Source of the DNA: a virus
Taxonomy: Duplodnaviria > Heunggongvirae > Uroviricota > Caudoviricetes
DNA: 30,620 nt
IMG/VR virus record: IMGVR_UViG_3300032050_000049
Span: 1-30,620 of that record
Direction: 5' to 3' (one strand)
A model generated the notes under the pieces. It saw nothing but the letters and a program-made list of their open reading frames with translations. It was not told the DNA's origin and did no database searches. A program made the position numbers and the translations under genes. This document shows, in pieces, positions 121-20,894 of the stretch (positions within the stretch are counted from its first letter, which is position 1; the number at the start of each line of letters is the position of its first letter).

Positions 121-124
121 TTTT

Positions 125-338
125 AACTGGTAATAAACGAAGTAAATCATATATTGTGGGACAACTACACTTTTAAGTATCGTGATTGATTACGAAAGCA
201 TTTTTTCCGTGTAGAATTTGACTTTCATCATTAAACATATTAAATGATTAACCCAAACACAACTGTGTGCTGTGCTGAAAAATGTCCGCTACACAGCGAT
301 GCTTACGTAGATAAGTAACTCAATGAATATTACCAGTT
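125..338 (+). ncRNA. candidate structured RNA A between tRNA-Lys and tRNA-Glu
   Basis: Perfect 11-bp closing helix AACTGGTAATA(125-135)/TATTACCAGTT(328-338) enclosing nested helices 165-170/209-214, 180-185/190-195, 227-232/243-248, 269-274/292-297 and 300-305/312-317; strand assumed from the flanking tRNAs. Confidence 0.5.
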
Positions 339-346
339 CATTTAAC

Positions 347-422: not shown

Positions 423-429
423 TTTGATG

Positions 430-587
430 TTTGGTTGTATAGCTAAGAAAAACAACTTGGTGGAGGGTATATAACCAAAATGCCCCTAGAGTTGGAAGTT
501 CTCTTAAAAAACTTCTTGGTTGCGGGGTTAGCGCATGGTATACTCTGTTTGTTGGGTGGATAGAGTATTCAATAGATACACCCAACA
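430..587 (+). ncRNA. candidate structured RNA B ending in an H-type pseudoknot
   Basis: 12-bp helix 430-441/468-479, hairpin 495-500/510-515, pseudoknot S1 ATACTCT(540-546)/AGAGTAT(562-568) with S2 TGTTGGGTG(550-558)/CACCCAACA(579-587). Confidence 0.5.
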
Positions 588-623
588 TAATTTTTAGGAT
601 AGTTCTTTATAAACAATTTAAAC

Positions 624-698
624 AGCTGGCGGCAGGTTATTATTTGACGATGGCTCATAACCATTGGTAACTAAGTGAGATTCTTAGGCGAGCGACCA
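624..698 (+). tRNA. aberrant tRNA-like gene, anticodon CAT
   Basis: Anticodon arm GATGG-CTCATAA-CCATT, T arm CTAAG-TGAGATT-CTTAG, acceptor AGCTGGC/GCGAGCG with 1:72 and 5:68 mismatches, ACCA end; D arm poorly paired. Confidence 0.6.
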
Positions 699-706
699 TT
701 TGTAAT

Positions 707-778
707 GGCTGGGGCTTCAGCAAGCAAGATTCTTTCATACGGAATCTTTAATGAGGGCAGCACTCATACCAGCTACCA
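707..778 (+). tRNA. aberrant tRNA-like gene, anticodon CAT, miniature D loop
   Basis: Acceptor GGCTGG/CCAGCT, D arm GCTT-CAGC-AAGC, anticodon arm GATTCT-TTCATAC-GGAATC, T arm ATGAG-GGCAGCA-CTCAT, ACCA end. Confidence 0.6.
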
Positions 779-853
779 TTTATTGTTCCTTGAAATTTTA
801 ACTTTTGTGTAAATAAAATGTATTCTTGTTTGGCTCTCTAATATATATTAGAT

Positions 854-1750: not shown

Positions 1751-1844
1751 GGTTCCGTAGTTTAACGGTAGAACGCAACGCTTATAACGTTGATAAGCTC
1801 TAGATTTGAGCACGGTCTCGGTTCGAATCCGGGCGGAACCACCA
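1751..1844 (+). tRNA. tRNA with TAT (Ile) anticodon and long variable arm
   Basis: Acceptor GGTTCCG/CGGAACC, anticodon arm CAACG-CTTATAA-CGTTG, variable arm GCTC-TAGATTT-GAGC, T arm CTCGG-TTCGAAT-CCGGG, ACCA. Confidence 0.88.
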
Positions 1845-2061: not shown

Positions 2062-2089
2062 TTGACATCAGAAGATGATGTGGTAAGAT
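2062..2089 (+). promoter_or_regulatory. strong sigma70-like promoter with extended -10
   Basis: TTGACA(2062-2067)-16 nt-TAAGAT(2084-2089) with TG at 2081-2082; followed by boxA-like GTTCTTTAAACAATTTA at 2109. Confidence 0.7.
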
Positions 2090-2126: not shown

Positions 2127-2202
2127 GCCTATGTAGACCAACGGCAGAGTCACGAAACTTAAAATTTCGGTAGTACTGGTTCGAATCCAGTCATAGGCAC
2201 CA
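2127..2202 (+). tRNA. tRNA-Leu(TAA), short variable loop
   Basis: Acceptor GCCTATG/CATAGGC, anticodon arm CGAAA-CTTAAAA-TTTCG, 5-nt variable loop GTAGT, T arm ACTGG-TTCGAAT-CCAGT, ACCA. Confidence 0.9.
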
Positions 2203-2212
2203 TTTTTTGATA

Positions 2213-2228
2213 GTTCTTTAACAATTTA
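2213..2228 (+). promoter_or_regulatory. boxA-like element upstream of candidate RNA D
   Basis: GTTCTTTAACAATTTA differs at one position from the E. coli rrn leader sequence GCTCTTTAACAATTTA. Confidence 0.6.
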
Positions 2229-2514
2229 AGATAGTGGCGGAACAACCTTTGTATAGGGGTAACGCACAATAGTGGTGAAGAATCATTATTGGTTGGAGTA
2301 ATAATGTGCAGTGTAAGTCTATGGCGGATTGTGGGTCGTACAACCTATAATTCAAGCGTAACGACATCGTAGCTAAAATAAATGATATATCGTAGGTCGT
2401 TGTGGGAAACCAATCCCATCAATCGTTAACATAGAGAGTAATTAACTTTATGGATTGTGGATGAATAACGGTGCATATTGTGAAACTTGGAGGTAATCAT
2501 TAGTCCTTCCTATT
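2229..2514 (+). ncRNA. candidate large structured RNA D (about 285 nt)
   Basis: No credible ORF; helices 2265-2271/2476-2482, 2284-2290/2300-2306, 2360-2365/2396-2401, 2403-2407/2414-2418, 2420-2424/2453-2457, 2430-2436/2446-2452; possible loop-loop pairing TTGGTT(2289-2294)/AACCAA(2408-2413). Confidence 0.6.
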
Positions 2515-2525
2515 TGAATTTAAAT

Positions 2526-2598
2526 GCGGGTCAAGTGTAAAGAGGGCACGCTGGTCTACCAGATCAGAAGGCGAAATGCAAAGTTCGGACCCGCTCCA
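2526..2598 (+). tRNA. tRNA-Gly-like with ACC anticodon and atypical T arm
   Basis: Acceptor GCGGGTC/GACCCGC with U73 discriminator (bacterial Gly-like), anticodon arm CTGGT-CTACCAG-ATCAG, T arm CGAA-ATGCAAAG-TTCG. Confidence 0.75.
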
Positions 2599-8280: not shown

Positions 8281-9765
8281 ATGAAGCTATTTAGAGACTT
8301 ACTGTTAGAAAATCCAGATACTGTATATTATAAGAAAAAGACATATAGTTATCGTAGCCCAGCGAACAAATGTGCTTTTCTTGTATATAAAGATGAAAAG
8401 AGTGGTAAAAATGCTATATTTGGATATAGTCTTGTTAAAAAAGAATTTTATTGTGATGACCCCGAAGTTTTAAAGGATGTAGACGAACTATCCAAACAGC
8501 CAAGTCTCAAATTGGATACAAGTATGAATTCTGATAATCAGCTTGATTATTGGGGACAAAGAGCAATAACTAACTTAAAGAACAGTAATAGTGGGGGAGG
8601 TCATTTAGATATAGAAAATCTTTTAAAAGGTATAGGTAGATTTGGTATTTATGCTGATCCACTTTTGAAGGGTAGAATATTTGAGGTAGATGATGCTAAA
8701 GATGTGGTTGATGATTCTCATTTAAAGATTGAAACTACAATACCAAGTGGCAAAGGTATTATTGTAACATTCTGGGATTCTAAAAGAGATAGAATAATTA
8801 AGTATAAAGATCAATATGATAAGGTTATAGAGTTCAATGGATATGACCCCAAAGAATGTTTGTATGAACCAAGTATGAATTTTTATACATATGATAACTT
8901 TTACAACGATGGTCCATCAATATCGGAAAAACCTTCACGAACTACCACTTCAAATACTACTGATACTACTTCTAGGAACTTACAAACTGGAGGTAATCCA
9001 GTCAGTTTCAAAGTGGGTGATAATGTGAAAGTTAGAGGAATGAAGACTTCTGGAGTGGTTGTATCTATTGCCGGAGATAAAATTACTATAAGAATAACGG
9101 ATACAGATGTTGAAGGTGTTAGTGTTGGTTCTGAAAAAACGTTTTCTTCTTGGTTTTTGGAACCTGTTGTCATTAATAATACAGAATTTAAAGTGGGTGA
9201 TAAAGTAAAATACAAAGGTTATGACACATATGGTGAAATAAAATTTATTGATGGAAATACTATTATTGTTAAAATAAATCAGTCTGATATTCCTCTTATG
9301 CCTGTAGGTGTAAGTTTTAGTTTTCCGCCATCTGCTTTGGAACTTGATAAAAGAACTCAAGGTGAGACGATTGAGAAAGTAGTTGATGATAAGACTCAAG
9401 AGTTTGTTGAAAAACGAGGTAAACTACATTCAACGGGTGCTACATTTACTCCAACGGAAAAACAAAATTTAGAAAAAGAAGTAGATAGTTTGGAAATTGA
9501 AATCAAGATACTAAACGATCTATTGAATGCTGGTATAAAAAACTATACAGATAATGTAAAAGATGTGGTTGCTAAATCTATTCAACGCAAACTACACGCC
9601 ATGTCAAAAGAAAAACAAGATAGATATAGTTTGATAGCCCAAGCTGAAAAGCAATATGGTATGCCTATTGCACAAATAAGACAAAAGTATAGAAATGTGC
9701 CATTGGATCAATTGGTTAAGAAAGAATCGTTATATAAGAAACTATTAAAGGCATTAAGAGGATGA
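8281..9765 (+). CDS. hypothetical protein with two KOW/SH3-like repeats and a helical C-terminus
   Basis: FKVGDNVKVRG and FKVGDKVKYKG repeats; TATTTATA motif at 8267-8274. Confidence 0.7.
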   Translation: MKLFRDLLLENPDTVYYKKKTYSYRSPANKCAFLVYKDEKSGKNAIFGYSLVKKEFYCDDPEVLKDVDELSKQPSLKLDTSMNSDNQLDYWGQRAITNLKNSNSGGGHLDIENLLKGIGRFGIYADPLLKGRIFEVDDAKDVVDDSHLKIETTIPSGKGIIVTFWDSKRDRIIKYKDQYDKVIEFNGYDPKECLYEPSMNFYTYDNFYNDGPSISEKPSRTTTSNTTDTTSRNLQTGGNPVSFKVGDNVKVRGMKTSGVVVSIAGDKITIRITDTDVEGVSVGSEKTFSSWFLEPVVINNTEFKVGDKVKYKGYDTYGEIKFIDGNTIIVKINQSDIPLMPVGVSFSFPPSALELDKRTQGETIEKVVDDKTQEFVEKRGKLHSTGATFTPTEKQNLEKEVDSLEIEIKILNDLLNAGIKNYTDNVKDVVAKSIQRKLHAMSKEKQDRYSLIAQAEKQYGMPIAQIRQKYRNVPLDQLVKKESLYKKLLKALRG

Positions 9766-18542: not shown

Positions 18543-20894
18543 ATGCCATTTACAAGATTACGACAATCAATGATTAAGCCAAATGGATCTATAACAGGAT
18601 CATTAAGTGGCACTAGTAGTTATTCAAGAAGAACATTGACCGCGAGTTATGCTTTGAATGCAAGTGGAGGTTCAATTAGTTATATTACAGGTTCGCCTGT
18701 GGTTGGACAATATATTGTTGTGAGTGGTAGTAATACAACTCAGTATGCATTAATACAAAACGTAACTAATCCAGAACATTTGTTAGTATCTGTAAATGGC
18801 GTTGTACAAAATTATAGTTCAAGTTATACAGTTACTGGTTCTACACTTAATTTTTATCAACCATATGATGACGGTGATGAAATTGATGTAAGATTCTTAA
18901 ATGGTGGTACTACCGTACAAACAGGTAGCATTGCGAAACAAACAGTTTGGACCAATGTAACTTCAGGTAGTACAAATACTATAACTGGACTAAGCTTAAG
19001 TAGCAACAAGTGGGATGTAAGCGTGGTAGAAGAATGGGATGCTGCGACACTTGATCAGTACTACAATAGTTGTAGCTTGTTGTGTCATTTTGACAGTATA
19101 AATTCTGCGGGAAGATTTATTGATAATAGCAGAAATAATTTTGCGATTACATCAAGTGGTGGAGCAGGATTGAGCACATCACAATATAAATTTGGTGGGG
19201 CTAGTGCTTATTTTGATGGAAGTGGTGATTACTTAACAACACCTTTGTCGTCAAATCTTCAATTTGGCACTGGAGATTTTACCATAGAATGTTGGAATTA
19301 TATGATTGCTAGAATCAATAGTTTTCCGACAATATTTTCTAATTACAACAGTTATACAGTCGGCGCATTATCTTTATTCGCAGGTCATAGTTCAGGAACA
19401 ACTACGTCATATCAAGTTGCAATAAATGGCGCTGCGTTCCCTACTATTCAAGGTGGAACAATTGAGTATAATACCTGGGTACATTTAGCAGTAGTTCGTA
19501 ACAGTGGTACAATTAAATTATATGTGAATGGTACAAGTGTTGGTACTCCGTATAGTACCGCTGTAACATTAAATGGAGTAGGATCACTTTTTTATATAGG
19601 AACAACTGGCGATAATATAGCTGCAGGTTATATTAATGGTTATATAGATGAATTTAGAATTACCAAAGGTGTTGCAAGATATACCAGTAATTTTACACCG
19701 CCTTCTGCACCATTTCCAAATTCACGTAATCAAGTGCTTACAAGGTATGTGGGTTTGGTGGGTGGTATAGATGATAAATATGTGGATTATGGTGTACAGA
19801 AGTTAAGCAACAGTTCGCTTAAATTGACAAGGCTTACATATCCAAATCAACCTATAGTTGGTAGCGGATCATTGAGTGGCAGTGTAAGCAGAGTATATGT
19901 AAATGTATTGGATTATGATAATGTTTCAATATCTGGCAGTATAAGTAATGCTGTTACTGCTAGTTTTGCTTTAAATTCAGCAACTAGCAGGGTTGCATTA
20001 TCAGCTAGTTACTTAATACCCACTTCAAATAACACAACCAAAGCTATATTTGGTTATGGTTATAATGGCAGTGTAGCTGTATCTATGACCAATTTAGTTA
20101 GTAATACAGGCGTAGTTGCAAATGATACAACAGGTGTAGGTACCGTTAGGTATCAATTAGCCGCTGCTGGATATGGAACTGATAAAGCTATATTTGGTTA
20201 TGGTTATGCGACTTCTGTATATGTATCTATGACCAATTTAGTTAATAACACAGGTGTTGTATCTACAGATACAACAGGTGTAGGTACTGCTAGAGAAGCA
20301 TTAGCTGCGGCTGGATATGGCACTGATAAAGCTATATTTGGTTATGGTACTACTGGTACAAATGTATCTATGACTAATTTGGTAAGTAATACTGGAGTGG
20401 TTTCAACAGATACAACTGGCGTAGGTAGTGCTAGAAGCAATTTGGCAGCAGCTGGATATGGAACTGATAAAGCTATATTTGGTTATGGTTATACAATCGC
20501 AAATGTATCTATGACCAATTTGGTAAGTAATACTGGCGTGGTTTCAACAGATACAACTGGTGTAGGTACTGCTAGAAGAGATCTACGTGCAGCTAGATAT
20601 GGAAATGATAAAGCTATTTTTGGTTATGGTTTAACCAGTGTAAATGTATCTATAACTAATTTGGTATCAAACGTTGGAGTGGTTGCAACTGACACAACTG
20701 GTGTTGGCACCAATAGAATACAATTAGCTGCTGCTGGATATGGTGTTGATAAAGCTATATTTGGTTATGGTTATACTACTGCAGAAGTTTCTATGGTTAA
20801 TTTAGTAAGTAATACAGGTGTAGTTGCGAATGACACAACGGGAATTGGTACTGCTAGAAGACTTTTAGCTGCATCTGGATATAGTACCAGTTAA
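18543..20894 (+). CDS. tail fibre/adhesin: LamG (concanavalin A-like) domain plus Kelch-like propeller
   Basis: FDGSGDYL..DFTIECW..WVHLAVVRNSG..LYVNG..YIDEFRITKGVARY LamG signature; six C-terminal blades. Confidence 0.8.
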   Translation: MPFTRLRQSMIKPNGSITGSLSGTSSYSRRTLTASYALNASGGSISYITGSPVVGQYIVVSGSNTTQYALIQNVTNPEHLLVSVNGVVQNYSSSYTVTGSTLNFYQPYDDGDEIDVRFLNGGTTVQTGSIAKQTVWTNVTSGSTNTITGLSLSSNKWDVSVVEEWDAATLDQYYNSCSLLCHFDSINSAGRFIDNSRNNFAITSSGGAGLSTSQYKFGGASAYFDGSGDYLTTPLSSNLQFGTGDFTIECWNYMIARINSFPTIFSNYNSYTVGALSLFAGHSSGTTTSYQVAINGAAFPTIQGGTIEYNTWVHLAVVRNSGTIKLYVNGTSVGTPYSTAVTLNGVGSLFYIGTTGDNIAAGYINGYIDEFRITKGVARYTSNFTPPSAPFPNSRNQVLTRYVGLVGGIDDKYVDYGVQKLSNSSLKLTRLTYPNQPIVGSGSLSGSVSRVYVNVLDYDNVSISGSISNAVTASFALNSATSRVALSASYLIPTSNNTTKAIFGYGYNGSVAVSMTNLVSNTGVVANDTTGVGTVRYQLAAAGYGTDKAIFGYGYATSVYVSMTNLVNNTGVVSTDTTGVGTAREALAAAGYGTDKAIFGYGTTGTNVSMTNLVSNTGVVSTDTTGVGSARSNLAAAGYGTDKAIFGYGYTIANVSMTNLVSNTGVVSTDTTGVGTARRDLRAARYGNDKAIFGYGLTSVNVSITNLVSNVGVVATDTTGVGTNRIQLAAAGYGVDKAIFGYGYTTAEVSMVNLVSNTGVVANDTTGIGTARRLLAASGYSTS

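What the first reader, a model, noticed from the sequence alone, without database searches (positions are those of the whole stretch)
2229..2514. Unassigned ~285-nt ornate RNA embedded as a member of the tRNA operon
Seen: a gap between tRNA-Leu(TAA) and tRNA-Gly that has its own boxA-like leader (2213), no credible ORF and many helices: CACAATA(2265-2271)/TATTGTG(2476-2482), CATTATT/AATAATG, AACGAC/GTCGTT, TGGGA/TCCCA, CAATC/GATTG, CATAGAG/CTTTATG. The ends can also pair (ATAG 2231-2234 with CTAT 2510-2513). The loop of the 2403-2418 hairpin (AACCAA) is complementary to TTGGTT at 2289-2294, a possible kissing loop. Known: large ncRNAs such as GOLLD and ROOL occur next to tRNAs in phages but are longer. 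Inference: a compact structured phage ncRNA, possibly of an undescribed class, processed out of the tRNA precursor.
Basis: partly seen in the sequence, partly recalled or inferred. Interest (0 to 1): 0.8.

Follow-up and report, generated by a model that had tools for sequence, protein, structure and literature searches.

The report
Circular manA-like RNA in phage tRNA operon
The flagged gap holds a real gene for a conserved, folded RNA of about 294 bases in uncultured freshwater giant phages; environmental RNA data suggest it is cut out of the tRNA transcript, joined into a circle and accumulates, and its frame distantly resembles the cage-forming manA RNA.

Summary
Window 2229-2515 is a conserved, non-coding, highly structured RNA. 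I found 40 distinct homologues in freshwater phage and metagenome contigs, at 70-97% identity. On this alignment 98% of the cells in 84 predicted pairs form a pair. Double compensatory changes occur in 26 pairs, against 17±1.7 in shuffles.

Two helices are rejected, and the kissing loop is specific to one clade.

No Rfam family reaches its threshold. The only recurrent weak hit is manA (RF01745) at 14-22 bits against a cut-off of 55.2. The closing helix, the GAAYAA/UAA hairpin and the terminal 11-nt-loop hairpin are shared; the middle is not.

In metatranscriptome contigs of three studies the element is a 292-295-nt unit. Its depth is about 200-257 against 5-7 on the flanks. Its 3' end is joined to its 5' end, and this joint is absent from all DNA searched.

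Relatives carry a T4 Rnl1-type RNA ligase 2-12 kb downstream.

My reading is a stand-alone stable RNA excised from the tRNA precursor and circularised. It probably acts in trans, and self-assembly like manA is the best guess.

The scan found this before on other DNA: note e1-5372441, on a near-identical relative, also reported the circle.

The parts
2062..2089 (+). sigma-70-type promoter (TTGACA, 16 nt, TG-TAAGAT) of the unit tRNA-Leu / element / tRNA-Gly-like / tRNA-Ile / tRNA-Met
   Evidence: 10 of 12 matches, with an extended -10 TG. In L014, L171 and L214b a TTGACA/TATACT promoter lies directly before the boxA and the element.
2127..2202 (+). upstream tRNA-Leu(UAA); its CCA end lies 27 nt before the element
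   Evidence: This is the upstream neighbour in most of the 40 homologues. In several relatives it is split by a group I intron.
2213..2224 (+). boxA-like antitermination motif GTTCTTTAACAA, invariant in front of the element
2223..2229 (+). 5' copy of the 7-nt direct repeat AATTTAA; the RNA junction lies somewhere inside this repeat
   Evidence: Read from the sequence. The joints carry 6 ambiguous letters.
2230..2523 (+). the 294-nt unit seen joined head to tail in RNA contigs. This is one of seven equivalent registers; each end may lie up to 6 nt further left.
   Evidence: contigs of 295 nt (X17) and 326 = 295+31 nt (X18) cover 2224-2520. The joints are 2517>2224 and 2518>2227. Depth is 204-257 on the element and 5-7 on the flanks.
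2229..2234 (+). P1 5' strand (AGAUAG), pairs with 2510-2515
   Evidence: 98% paired. L214b changes both strands: UUCU/AGAA.
2237..2265 (+). P2 hairpin: 2237-2239/2263-2265 and 2245-2249/2256-2260, with the internal loop GAACA / AA. This is the manA-like 'GUG-xC-xGAAYAA ... UAA' module.
   Evidence: the inner pairs show CG/GU/AU and UG/AU/CG types. Aligned with high posterior probability to manA P2.
2267..2291 (+). P3 hairpin (2267-2276/2282-2291) with a GAAGA/GAAAA loop
   Evidence: One clade lengthens both strands, and in L214b the sequence is entirely different yet still pairs.
2296..2314 (+). P4 long-range helix, 5' strand; pairs with 2468-2488
   Evidence: Several pairs carry 14-23 double changes.
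2317..2324 (+). P5, 5' strand (GUCUAUGG), a G.U-rich helix with 2455-2462. Its last 3 pairs compete with CAAUC(2420-2424)/GAUUG(2453-2457).
   Evidence: 100% paired, but only one-sided changes.
2326..2353 (+). P6 hairpin (2326-2336/2343-2353)
   Evidence: compensatory changes at five pairs.
2360..2401 (+). P7 hairpin (2360-2365/2396-2401) carrying a large, nearly invariant loop with two AUCGUAG repeats and AAUGAU (2381-2386)
   Evidence: AU/GC and CG/GC swaps. AAUGAU is complementary to the P10 loop in 39 of 40 sequences.
2403..2418 (+). P8 hairpin (UGGGA / UCCCA); the loop AACCAA is variable across clades
2430..2452 (+). P9 hairpin (CAUAGAG / CUUUAUG); its loop carries the conserved palindrome UAAUUA
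   Evidence: UA/CG and AU/GC swaps. Loops listed.
2455..2488 (+). 3' strands of P5 and P4, with the invariant joiners GAUGAAUAAC and GAAAC
2489..2509 (+). P10 terminal hairpin (GGAGG / CCUUC) with the 11-nt loop UAAUCAUUAGU. Its 3' strand runs straight into the 3' strand of P1, as a T arm does into an acceptor stem. It matches manA's last hairpin.
2510..2515 (+). P1 3' strand (CUAUUU)
2517..2523 (+). 3' copy of the direct repeat AATTTAA
   Evidence: Read from the sequence; joints.
2526..2598 (+). non-canonical tRNA-Gly-like gene (anticodon loop CUACCAG, reduced T arm, U73-CCA). It is the downstream neighbour in 39 of 40 homologues, and its 5' end is a likely RNase P site 2-3 nt beyond the unit.

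Best explanation
Window 2229-2515 is a gene for a stable, trans-acting structured RNA of uncultured freshwater jumbo phages.

- Shown: it is transcribed with the tRNAs from sigma-70-type promoters behind a boxA motif.
- Shown, from RNA contigs only: it accumulates as a discrete unit of about 294 nt whose two ends are joined head to tail.
- Inferred: the unit is cut out by the tRNA-processing machinery. RNase P would cut at the following tRNA-Gly-like gene, followed by trimming. A cut may also occur at the tRNA-like stack of P1 and P10.
- Inferred: helix P1 holds the ends together as a broken hairpin loop, and an ATP-dependent RNA ligase seals them. The Rnl1-type enzyme that related phages encode a few kb downstream is the candidate.
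- Partly shown: its outer frame (P1, the P2 hairpin with a GAAYAA/UAA internal loop, and the terminal hairpin P10 with an 11-nt loop) is that of the manA RNA. It is wrapped around a larger and different core, P4/P5 enclosing four hairpins.
- Inferred by analogy, about 35% likely: the circle works as an architectural RNA that associates with copies of itself. The contacts would be invariant exposed loops. The P7 loop AAUGAU pairs with the P10 loop AUCAUU, in the way the L8-L9' kissing loop builds manA pentamers. The P9 loop carries a palindromic UAAUUA.
For: Conservation and structure:
- There are 40 distinct homologues, one copy per genome in G001 (complete), G002 and G003, all restricted to phage-like contigs.
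- RNAalifold predicts 72 pairs, 21 of them with compensatory changes.
- With ribosum scoring, 98.3% of cells in 84 pairs are paired. Pairs with double changes number 26, against 17.0±1.7 (maximum 22) in 300 shuffles and 0-6 when the partners are slid.

Operon membership:
- A promoter and a boxA precede it, and tRNAs lie on both sides.

RNA species:
- Contigs of 295 and 326 (295+31) nt cover exactly 2224-2520.
- Depth is 204-257 on the element against 5-7 on the flanking tRNAs.
- 'Goes back' joints of 294 and 292 nt appear in X18 and X16.
- Loose ends in X17 and X18 read from the 3' end of the element into its 5' end. The runs come from three studies.
- The joint sequence is absent from 2.9 million viral DNA contigs, at least 16 of which hold the element, and from all 223 fetched loci.

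Ligase:
- G001 has a PF09511 match of 57.7 bits. The same gene lies on the same strand, 2-12 kb downstream of the element, in at least 7 contigs.
- An AAA_33 kinase follows 3.4 kb further in G001.
- G002 has an Rnl2-type ligase.

manA frame:
- manA is the only Rfam family that hits every clade. Scores are 14.2-22 bits; the best E-value is 0.001, for L023 searched against all families.
- My own model R1 puts its top hit in the S-CREM1 locus and in the P-SSM4 locus exactly on their manA RNAs, aligning P1, P2 and P10.

Context parallel:
- In cyanophage S-CREM1 the true manA lies between tRNA-Leu and tRNA-Asn, and wcaG lies before tRNA-Met.
- The window has a wcaG-like RNA at 425-530 (30.2 bits, E 0.005).

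Self-assembly analogy:
- manA forms pentamers, decamers and 60-mers through the L5-L7' and L8-L9' kissing loops (preprint 10.64898/2026.07.01.735769).
- In this family the corresponding loops are complementary in 39 of 40 sequences.
Against: - All RNA evidence comes from assembled contigs of metatranscriptomes. These cannot show true ends, the strand or RNase R resistance. Two of the three studies (both riverine) may be one campaign. Run X15 shows only the co-linear genomic form.
- The manA scores are far below the family cut-off of 55.2 bits.
- R1 also scores 10-20 bits on coding DNA of the window itself. The reciprocal hits therefore count only by where they fall, and the P-SSM2 manA was not the top hit in its locus.
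- The centre of the RNA has no manA counterpart.
- The complementary loops are invariant, so there is no covariation test. The divergent paralogue L214b breaks that complementarity.
- No ligase gene lies in the 30-kb window itself.
- RNA ligases are common in large phages, so their presence is only circumstantial.
- The processing enzymes and the function are inferred.
Confidence: 0.6

Rival explanations
1. It is an independent, new class of phage RNA. The resemblance to manA is convergent or due to chance: both simply use a closing helix, a common UAA/GAN-type internal loop and a terminal hairpin.
For: - The scores are 14-22 bits against a cut-off of 55.2.
- My model R1 gives 10-20 bits on unrelated coding DNA.
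- The central five-way domain, the large P7 loop and P3 have no manA counterpart.
- No canonical manA or intermediate form was found in 122 kb of related loci or in the complete genome G001.
Against: - The same family is the sole hit in five diverged clades.
- The reciprocal top hits fall exactly on manA in 2 of 3 cyanophage loci. My own positional estimate puts the chance of that at about 0.4%.
- The order and spacing of the shared modules are the same, including 'UG' before both hairpins and an 11-nt loop with 5 of manA's 6 best-conserved loop letters.
- The tRNA-array context with a wcaG-like partner is also shared.
Confidence: 0.3
2. The RNA is linear. The head-to-tail joints would be artefacts (template switching on an abundant structured RNA, or assembly artefacts), or they would come from unsampled genomes with tandem gene copies.
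For: - Only contigs could be laid, not raw reads.
- A 7-9-nt direct repeat flanks the unit and could favour template switching.
- X15 shows the co-linear form only.
Against: - The joint appears in three runs of three studies, and for several sequence variants.
- Its depth is equal to or above that of the body of the element.
- The X18 contig closes on itself with a 31-nt overlap, as a cycle in a k=31 graph does. A 7-nt repeat cannot create that.
- No DNA contig holds the joint.
- No tandem copy occurs among about 60 DNA loci.
Confidence: 0.12
3. It is a cis-acting leader of the tRNA-Gly-like gene, for example a processing scaffold or a sensing element that controls maturation or read-through into the following tRNAs.
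For: - It stands directly before a tRNA-Gly-like gene in 39 of 40 cases, with three different tRNA-Gly-like types.
- It contains two invariant UUGGAG strings. Their UGGA could pair with the UCCA end; this is read from the sequence only.
Against: - In L171 the tRNA-Gly-like gene is absent but the element is intact.
- There is no T-box or riboswitch match and no terminator.
- The element accumulates on its own, 30-50 times above the downstream tRNAs, and is joined to itself rather than to them.
Confidence: 0.08
4. It is a tRNA-like or tmRNA-like RNA that is aminoacylated. The acceptor-like P1 with a G.U at the third pair (in relatives whose P1 has 7 pairs), stacked on the T-arm-like P10, would support this.
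For: P10 abuts the 3' strand of P1 exactly as a T stem abuts an acceptor stem. The G2230.U2514 wobble is conserved in 39 of 40 sequences.
Against: - There is no 3' CCA after P1.
- ARAGORN finds no tmRNA, and Rfam gives no tmRNA or tRNA match.
- There is no conserved reading frame, given the indels.
- The ends are joined.
Confidence: 0.03

Closest known systems
manA RNA motif (Rfam RF01745; Weinberg et al. 2010, PMC2864571; cryo-EM preprint 10.64898/2026.07.01.735769)
   Same: - It is phage-borne.
- A closing helix is followed by 'UG' and a hairpin with a GAAYAA/UAA internal loop.
- A terminal hairpin, preceded by 'UG', carries an 11-nt loop and abuts the 3' strand of the closing helix.
- An earlier hairpin has a loop complementary to that terminal loop.
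- In cyanophage S-CREM1, manA likewise sits between two tRNA genes, with a wcaG RNA nearby.
   Different: - It scores 14-22 bits against a cut-off of 55.2.
- It is about 100 nt longer.
- manA's three-hairpin centre (the GUGGUG, GNRA and ACCA loops) is replaced by P3 plus a P4/P5 stem enclosing four hairpins.
- The 5' extra hairpin of manA is missing.
- It is led by a boxA motif.
- It is apparently circular in RNA data, which has not been reported for manA.
- manA is filed as cis-regulatory; this RNA behaves as a gene of its own.
Stable RNAs species 1 and 2 (rnaC, rnaD) of the phage T4 tRNA cluster (from my own knowledge; not tested here)
   Same: They are non-tRNA stable RNAs of unknown function, encoded among phage tRNA genes and released from the same precursors by the tRNA-processing enzymes.
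   Different: The T4 RNAs are shorter (about 120-140 nt) and are not known to be circular.
Circular C/D box sRNAs of archaea, sealed by an ATP-dependent RNA ligase (PMC9014305, PMC2577357)
   Same: Small structured non-coding RNAs whose ends are brought together by a terminal helix and joined by an Rnl-type ligase into stable circles.
   Different: They occur in a different domain of life, use a different ligase family (Rnl3) and have a different RNA fold and function (guides for methylation). Here the role of the ligase is only inferred.
wcaG RNA motif (RF01761)
   Same: It is the companion motif of manA in cyanophages. A wcaG-like RNA lies in the same array at window 425-530 (30.2 bits).
   Different: It is a different RNA from the flagged element, and it too is below its cut-off (42 bits).
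GOLLD and ROOL large RNAs
   Same: They are large ornate RNAs often found near tRNAs in phages, and they form RNA-only multimers according to recent cryo-EM work cited in the preprint.
   Different: There is no Rfam match at any threshold. They are two to three times longer and have unrelated architecture.

Membership tests
manA RNA (RF01745) | Covariance-model score at or above the curated gathering score of 55.2 bits | tested here: not met
   The window scores 14.2 bits. Relatives score 22.0 (L023), 17.9 (L147), 17.6-17.7 (L145) and 14.6 (L019). True manA RNAs score 96.6-184 bits.
manA RNA (RF01745) | A closing helix followed by GUG, a 2-bp clamp, a xGAAYAA internal loop, a stem-loop, then UAA and the clamp (P2 module) | tested here: met
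   2229-2265 aligns to model positions 18-60 with high posterior probability. The same module aligns when my model R1 is run on the S-CREM1 and P-SSM4 manA RNAs.
manA RNA (RF01745) | A terminal hairpin preceded by UG, with an 11-nt loop UA..CA..AAU, running directly into the 3' strand of the closing helix | tested here: met
   2487-2515 (UG GGAGG UAAUCAUUAGU CCUUC CUAUUU) matches model positions 161-182 as a separate hit. It is also aligned.
manA RNA (RF01745) | A central three-hairpin domain with GUGGUG, GNRA and ACCA loops, followed by the P4 hairpin | tested here: not met
   The consensus structure of the 40 homologues has P3 plus a P4/P5 stem enclosing four hairpins. The model aligns this part with low confidence and many non-canonical pairs. 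An ACCA loop with a UGGU partner exists only in the window's clade.
manA RNA (RF01745) | Loops of the last two hairpins complementary to each other (the intermolecular L8-L9' kissing loop in the cryo-EM preprint) | tested here: inconclusive
   The P7 loop AAUGAU and the P10 loop AUCAUU are complementary in 39 of 40 sequences. Both are invariant, so no covariation test is possible, and L214b breaks the pairing. Equating these loops with L8 and L9 is my own reading of the Rfam consensus and of the preprint text.
manA RNA (RF01745) | Forms closed homo-oligomers (pentamer-based decamers or 60-mers) in vitro | not testable with these tools
   This needs SEC, native gels or cryo-EM on the transcript.
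Ligase-sealed circular non-coding RNA | A head-to-tail junction present in RNA and absent from DNA | tested here: met
   The joints 2517>2224 and 2518>2227, with matching loose ends, appear in RNA contigs of X16, X17 and X18. The junction pattern has 0 matches in viral contigs and in all 223 loci. Caveat: these are contigs only, and DNA libraries of the same samples were not examined.
Ligase-sealed circular non-coding RNA | An RNA ligase available in the system | tested here: inconclusive
   An Rnl1-type gene lies 2-12 kb downstream of the element in at least 7 related contigs, and G002 has an Rnl2-type gene. No RtcB was found. The 30-kb window holds none, and its full genome is not held.
Ligase-sealed circular non-coding RNA | Exonuclease (RNase R) resistance and circular gel mobility | not testable with these tools
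   This needs an experiment.
tmRNA | A tRNA-like domain ending in CCA, a tag reading frame, and detection by ARAGORN or Rfam | tested here: not met
   ARAGORN reports no tmRNA and Rfam gives no match. No CCA follows P1. Indels of 1, 2, 3, 4 and 7 nt rule out a conserved frame.
GOLLD / ROOL / T-box / known self-cleaving ribozymes | A match to the Rfam covariance model | tested here: not met
   With permissive filters on 2200-2600 at E up to 10, only manA is listed.

The most novel reading that the evidence does not exclude
A phage-encoded RNA is excised from a tRNA operon transcript by the tRNA-processing enzymes. The phage's own 'tRNA repair' ligase closes it into a 294-nt circle, and it then assembles through kissing loops into RNA-only oligomers or cages inside the infected cell. 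This would be a natural circular architectural RNA in a bacterial virus. It would also give Rnl1-type ligases a constructive substrate beside tRNA repair.
Probability: 0.2. Interest if true: 0.9.

Novelty: new variant of a known kind. Interest (0 to 1): 0.74.

Why it matters
Function of manA-type RNAs:
- manA has been filed since 2010 as a candidate cis-regulator with no function. A 2026 preprint shows it builds RNA cages in vitro, but gives no biological setting.
- This family shows a manA-framed RNA as a free-standing, boxA-driven member of tRNA operons in freshwater jumbo phages.
- It is far more abundant than its neighbours in environmental RNA assemblies, and it is apparently circular.

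If that holds:
- It gives the manA-type RNAs a defined mature form that can be tested directly.
- It suggests a constructive role for phage RNA ligases, and perhaps for the odd tRNA-Gly-like gene as a processing handle.
- It adds a DNA-encoded circular RNA to phage biology, where very few are known.
- Circular topology would explain both the stability and the tolerance of such genes to permutation.

Tried and rejected
- BLAST of the element and of 12 kb of the window against the GenBank phage collection: no match.
- The window's own genome is not held.
- The 14-mer TATTGGTTGGAGTA was too unspecific: 117 mostly chance loci.
- The 19-mer scan of cellular genomes gave two chance matches, with no R1 hit and no tRNAs. 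I therefore found no cellular or prophage copy.
- blastn with the S-CREM1 manA found only itself.
- RNase P RNA, group I intron, hammerhead, T-box and tmRNA readings were considered by eye from short motifs (GUAAGUC.AUGG, GAUGAAUAAC, GAAAC, UGGA). I dropped them because the helices needed are absent and Rfam lists none of them at E up to 10.
- The reciprocal CM scores cannot serve as statistical support, because R1 reaches 20.3 bits inside a coding gene of the window.
- R1 found nothing in 838 kb of unrelated loci. That search used default filters and a larger E-value base, so it is only a weak control.
- RtcB: none in G001-G003.
- Target-site duplication by a mobile element was considered for the AATTTAA repeat. 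The same AU-rich string precedes other tRNAs of the array, so it is more likely a shared leader or processing context.
- The exact ligation point cannot be placed, because the repeat makes seven registers equivalent.
Full report
**Where it lies.** The window is an AT-rich, phage-like contig. Its genome is not held and it has no relative in the GenBank phage collection. Positions 44-2803 form a tRNA array on the + strand. The flagged gap lies between tRNA-Leu(UAA) (2127-2202) and a cloverleaf at 2526-2598 that both ARAGORN and Rfam miss. A promoter (TTGACA, 16 nt, TG-TAAGAT, 2062-2089) and boxA-like motifs precede the RNA genes of the array. On the + strand these motifs start at 24, 1653, 2109 and 2213. 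They are among 9 pattern matches in the whole window, against 1.4 expected. The only ORF in the gap is a 49-aa frame on the minus strand.

**Is it real and conserved?** Searches with neighbouring proteins and with DNA patterns in IMG/VR and in metagenomes gave many loci. An nhmmer profile search then gave 75 hits. These reduce to 40 distinct element sequences, 70-97% identical to the window. All come from freshwater, lake, river or drinking-water phage-like contigs (for habitats). One of them is a complete 295,831-bp jumbo phage, G001. G001, G002 and G003 each hold one copy. One contig, L214, holds two diverged paralogues. Two exact 19-mer matches in cellular genomes are chance matches. Indels of 1, 2, 3, 4 and 7 nt exclude a coding reading.

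**Structure.** The single sequence folds only slightly better than shuffles (z = -1.9). The alignment is what decides.
- RNAalifold on the 40 sequences gives 72 pairs, 21 of them with compensatory changes.
- With ribosum scoring there are 84 pairs and 98.3% of cells are paired. Double changes occur in 26 pairs, against 17.0±1.7 (maximum 22) in 300 column shuffles and 0-6 when the partners are slid by 1-3 columns.

The helices, in window coordinates, are:
- P1: 2229-2234/2510-2515
- P2: 2237-2239/2263-2265 and 2245-2249/2256-2260
- P3: 2267-2276/2282-2291
- P4: 2296-2314/2468-2488
- P5: 2317-2324/2455-2462
- P6: 2326-2336/2343-2353
- P7: 2360-2365/2396-2401, with a large invariant loop
- P8: 2403-2407/2414-2418
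- P9: 2430-2436/2446-2452
- P10: 2489-2493/2505-2509

The divergent paralogue L214b changes both strands of P1 and the whole of P3 while keeping the pairing.

- Three hold: AACGAC/GTCGTT, TGGGA/TCCCA and CATAGAG/CTTTATG. The end pairing also holds.
- CAATC/GATTG is 99.5% paired with AU/GU/GC variation. It competes with the last three pairs of P5.
- CACAATA/TATTGTG loses its C-G pair in 21 of 40 sequences. CATTATT/AATAATG is only 60% paired. Both are replaced by P3 and P4.
- The AACCAA/TTGGTT kissing pair keeps its two central G-C pairs in only 17-21 of 40 sequences.

**Comparison with known RNA families.** At gathering thresholds only tRNAs are found in the window, and only tRNAs and group I introns in 122 kb of related loci. 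With permissive settings one family recurs on the element in every clade: manA (RF01745). It scores 14.2 bits in the window, 22.0 in L023 (E 0.001 against all families), 17.9, 17.6 and 14.6 elsewhere. The cut-off is 55.2 bits, and true manA RNAs score 97-184 bits. Membership by the curated test therefore fails.

The parts that do align are specific:
- the closing helix;
- 'GUG', a 2-bp clamp, a GAAYAA loop, a stem, then UAA and the clamp (P2);
- 'UG', a 4-5-bp stem and an 11-nt loop UA..CA..A.U, running straight into the 3' strand of the closing helix (P10).

I built a model of this family, R1, and ran it without filters on three cyanophage loci. Its best hit in the S-CREM1 locus and in the P-SSM4 locus falls exactly on their manA RNAs and aligns those same modules. 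The scores (11.4 and 10.5 bits) are not significant in themselves, because R1 reaches 20.3 bits inside a coding gene of the window. Only the position counts; by my estimate that is about a 0.4% chance. The P-SSM2 manA was not the top hit in its locus. The centre of the RNA has no manA counterpart.

The context is a second parallel. In cyanophage S-CREM1 (OP535465) the true manA lies between tRNA-Leu and tRNA-Asn, and wcaG lies before tRNA-Met. The window carries a wcaG-like RNA at 425-530 (30.2 bits, E 0.005). In P-SSM2 and P-SSM4, manA lies between protein genes, so the tRNA context is not universal. I put the odds that this family is a diverged, enlarged relative of manA at roughly 55-65%.

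**Genomic context across the family.**
- The boxA motif and the string AATTTAA directly precede the element in nearly all copies.
- Upstream is usually tRNA-Leu(UAA), in several relatives split by a group I intron.
- In L014, L171 and L214b the unit lies elsewhere in the array, behind its own TTGACA/TATACT promoter.
- Downstream, in 39 of 40 cases, is one of several tRNA-Gly-like genes (anticodon loops CUACCAG, CUUCCAG, AUUCCAG and CAACCAG). Their acceptor and anticodon stems covary, the T arm is reduced and they end in U73-CCA.
- L171 lacks this gene and keeps the element, so the element does not depend on it in cis.

**The RNA species.** Six metatranscriptome runs hold about the element's share of the 621-nt query. 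I laid four of them on the window.
- In X17 and X18 the depth is 257 and 204 over 2226-2519. It is 5-7 over the downstream tRNAs and 18-22 just upstream.
- X17 has a 295-nt contig covering exactly 2226-2520.
- X18 has a 326-nt contig (295 + 31) whose end returns to its start (joint 2517>2224, 'goes back 294').
- X16, from a third study, has a joint 2518>2227.
- Loose ends in X17 and X18 read from ...UCCUUCCUAUUUG... into GAUAGUGGCGG....
- A 7-nt direct repeat (AATTTAA at 2223-2229 and 2517-2523) makes seven registers equivalent. It is far too short to create such a cycle in a k=31 assembly.
- The junction string, allowing for the two main variants, is absent from 2.9 million viral DNA contigs, at least 16 of which carry the element, and from all 223 fetched loci. 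No tandem copy exists among about 60 DNA loci.
- X15 shows only the co-linear form at low depth, which could be precursor or DNA.

I conclude that the mature RNA is most likely a 294-nt circle. The caveats are that only contigs could be examined, that the strand and the true ends are not shown, and that two of the three studies may be one campaign.

**How the circle could be made (inferred).**
- P1 brings the two ends together. In the joined form P1 is capped by a 7-nt AU-rich loop (GAAUUUA), so the unsealed RNA looks like a broken hairpin loop.
- From my own knowledge, that is the kind of substrate T4 RNA ligase 1 repairs in tRNA anticodon loops.
- G001 encodes an Rnl1-type ligase (PF09511, 57.7 bits). 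The same gene lies on the same strand, 2-12 kb downstream of the element, in at least 7 contigs, including one of the window's own clade, L194.
- An AAA_33 kinase follows 3.4 kb further in G001. G002 has an Rnl2-type ligase. No RtcB was found.
- The window itself holds no ligase.
- The 3' end would arise from the RNase P cut at the tRNA-Gly-like gene (2525/2526), followed by trimming of 2-8 nt.
- The 5' cut is unknown. The P1/P10 coaxial stack resembles an acceptor/T-arm minihelix and might itself be an RNase P site.
- An archaeal precedent exists: Rnl-type ligases circularise C/D box sRNAs (PMC9014305).

**What it may do (inferred).** A 2026 preprint reports that manA RNAs form pentamer-based decamers and a 60-mer cage. 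The contacts are the intermolecular kissing loops L5-L7' and L8-L9' and a GNRA-receptor contact. By my reading of the manA consensus, L8-L9' is the CUGU/ACAG complementarity between the loops of the last two hairpins. This family has the analogous pair: AAUGAU in the P7 loop and AUCAUU in the P10 loop, complementary in 39 of 40 sequences. It also has a conserved palindromic UAAUUA in the P9 loop, a GAAGA/GAAAA loop on P3 and, in the window's clade only, an ACCA/UGGU pair. These loops are invariant, so covariation cannot test them, and L214b breaks the P7-P10 pair. I take self-association into a defined RNA assembly as the most likely mode of action, at about 35%. The alternatives are a decoy or sponge for a host tRNA-directed enzyme and a cis role for the tRNA-Gly-like gene.

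**Earlier notes of this scan.** Earlier notes describe manA-like RNAs in tRNA arrays of other phages. For a near-identical relative, note e1-5372441 reports an abundant RNA whose ends appear joined. I used these notes as leads. The manA resemblance and the circle were re-derived here from my own searches.

**Verdict.** This is a real, conserved, expressed structured RNA gene. It is uncatalogued, it is most likely an enlarged manA-type RNA, and it is most likely circular. Its function is not established.

Noticed in passing
window 425-530: A wcaG-like structured RNA lies directly after tRNA-Glu (RF01761, 30.2 bits against a cut-off of 42; E 0.005). The same sequence follows tRNA-Glu in L014 and L171. 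In cyanophage S-CREM1, wcaG and manA share one tRNA array in the same way.
   Followed up: partly
window 2526-2598, and the units after the element in about 40 loci: This is a family of tRNA-Gly-like genes (anticodons ACC or UCC, discriminator U73 plus CCA) that ARAGORN and Rfam miss. U8 is often missing. The T arm is reduced to 3-4 pairs with UGCAA-type loops (G in place of pseudouridine-55), and some have anticodon loops of 6 or 8 nt. The acceptor and anticodon stems covary. The weak pairs at 49-65 and 50-64 recall the non-proteinogenic tRNA-Gly of staphylococci (from memory, untested).
   Followed up: partly
L019 518-710; L003 9131-9323 (-); L016 7730-7922; L179 5560-5752: In several relatives a group I intron (72-75 bits) is inserted in the tRNA-Leu(UAA) gene that precedes the element. 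The window's own tRNA-Leu(UAA) is uninterrupted.
   Followed up: no
window 121-346 and 1845-1968: These spacers of 226 and 124 nt lie between tRNAs that are only 7-10 nt apart in the relative L013. They are variable non-coding insertions in the array and may be further RNA genes.
   Followed up: no
window 1751-1844 and 2612-2704: Two tRNAs with anticodon UAU carry long variable arms of about 24 nt that share the loop CUAGAUUUG. That is unusual for an isoleucine-type tRNA.
   Followed up: no
window 600-780: After another boxA-like motif there is a stretch of about 170 nt with a CAU anticodon-like arm, ending in ...ACCAGCUACCA. ARAGORN does not call it. It may be one or two deformed tRNA-like RNAs.
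   Followed up: no
L214 2468-2866 (-) and 4598-4991 (-): One metagenome contig carries two paralogues of the element, about 70% identical. The second has its own promoter, a changed P1 and a different P10 loop (UAGUCAGGAGU) that no longer matches the P7 loop.
   Followed up: partly
L208 7491-8582 and 11959-12414 (G001); also L164, L175, L194, L157, L028, L024: An Rnl1-type RNA ligase gene lies 2-12 kb downstream of the tRNA and element array, on the same strand, in at least seven contigs. In G001 an AAA_33 (polynucleotide-kinase-like) gene follows 3.4 kb further. Together they could be a T4-like RNA repair set.
   Followed up: partly
window 19568-19718 and 9060-9191: My covariance model R1, run without filters, scores 20.3 and 15.0 bits inside protein-coding genes. 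These are false positives. They show that the shortened calibration gives E-values that are too optimistic on AT-rich DNA.
   Followed up: no
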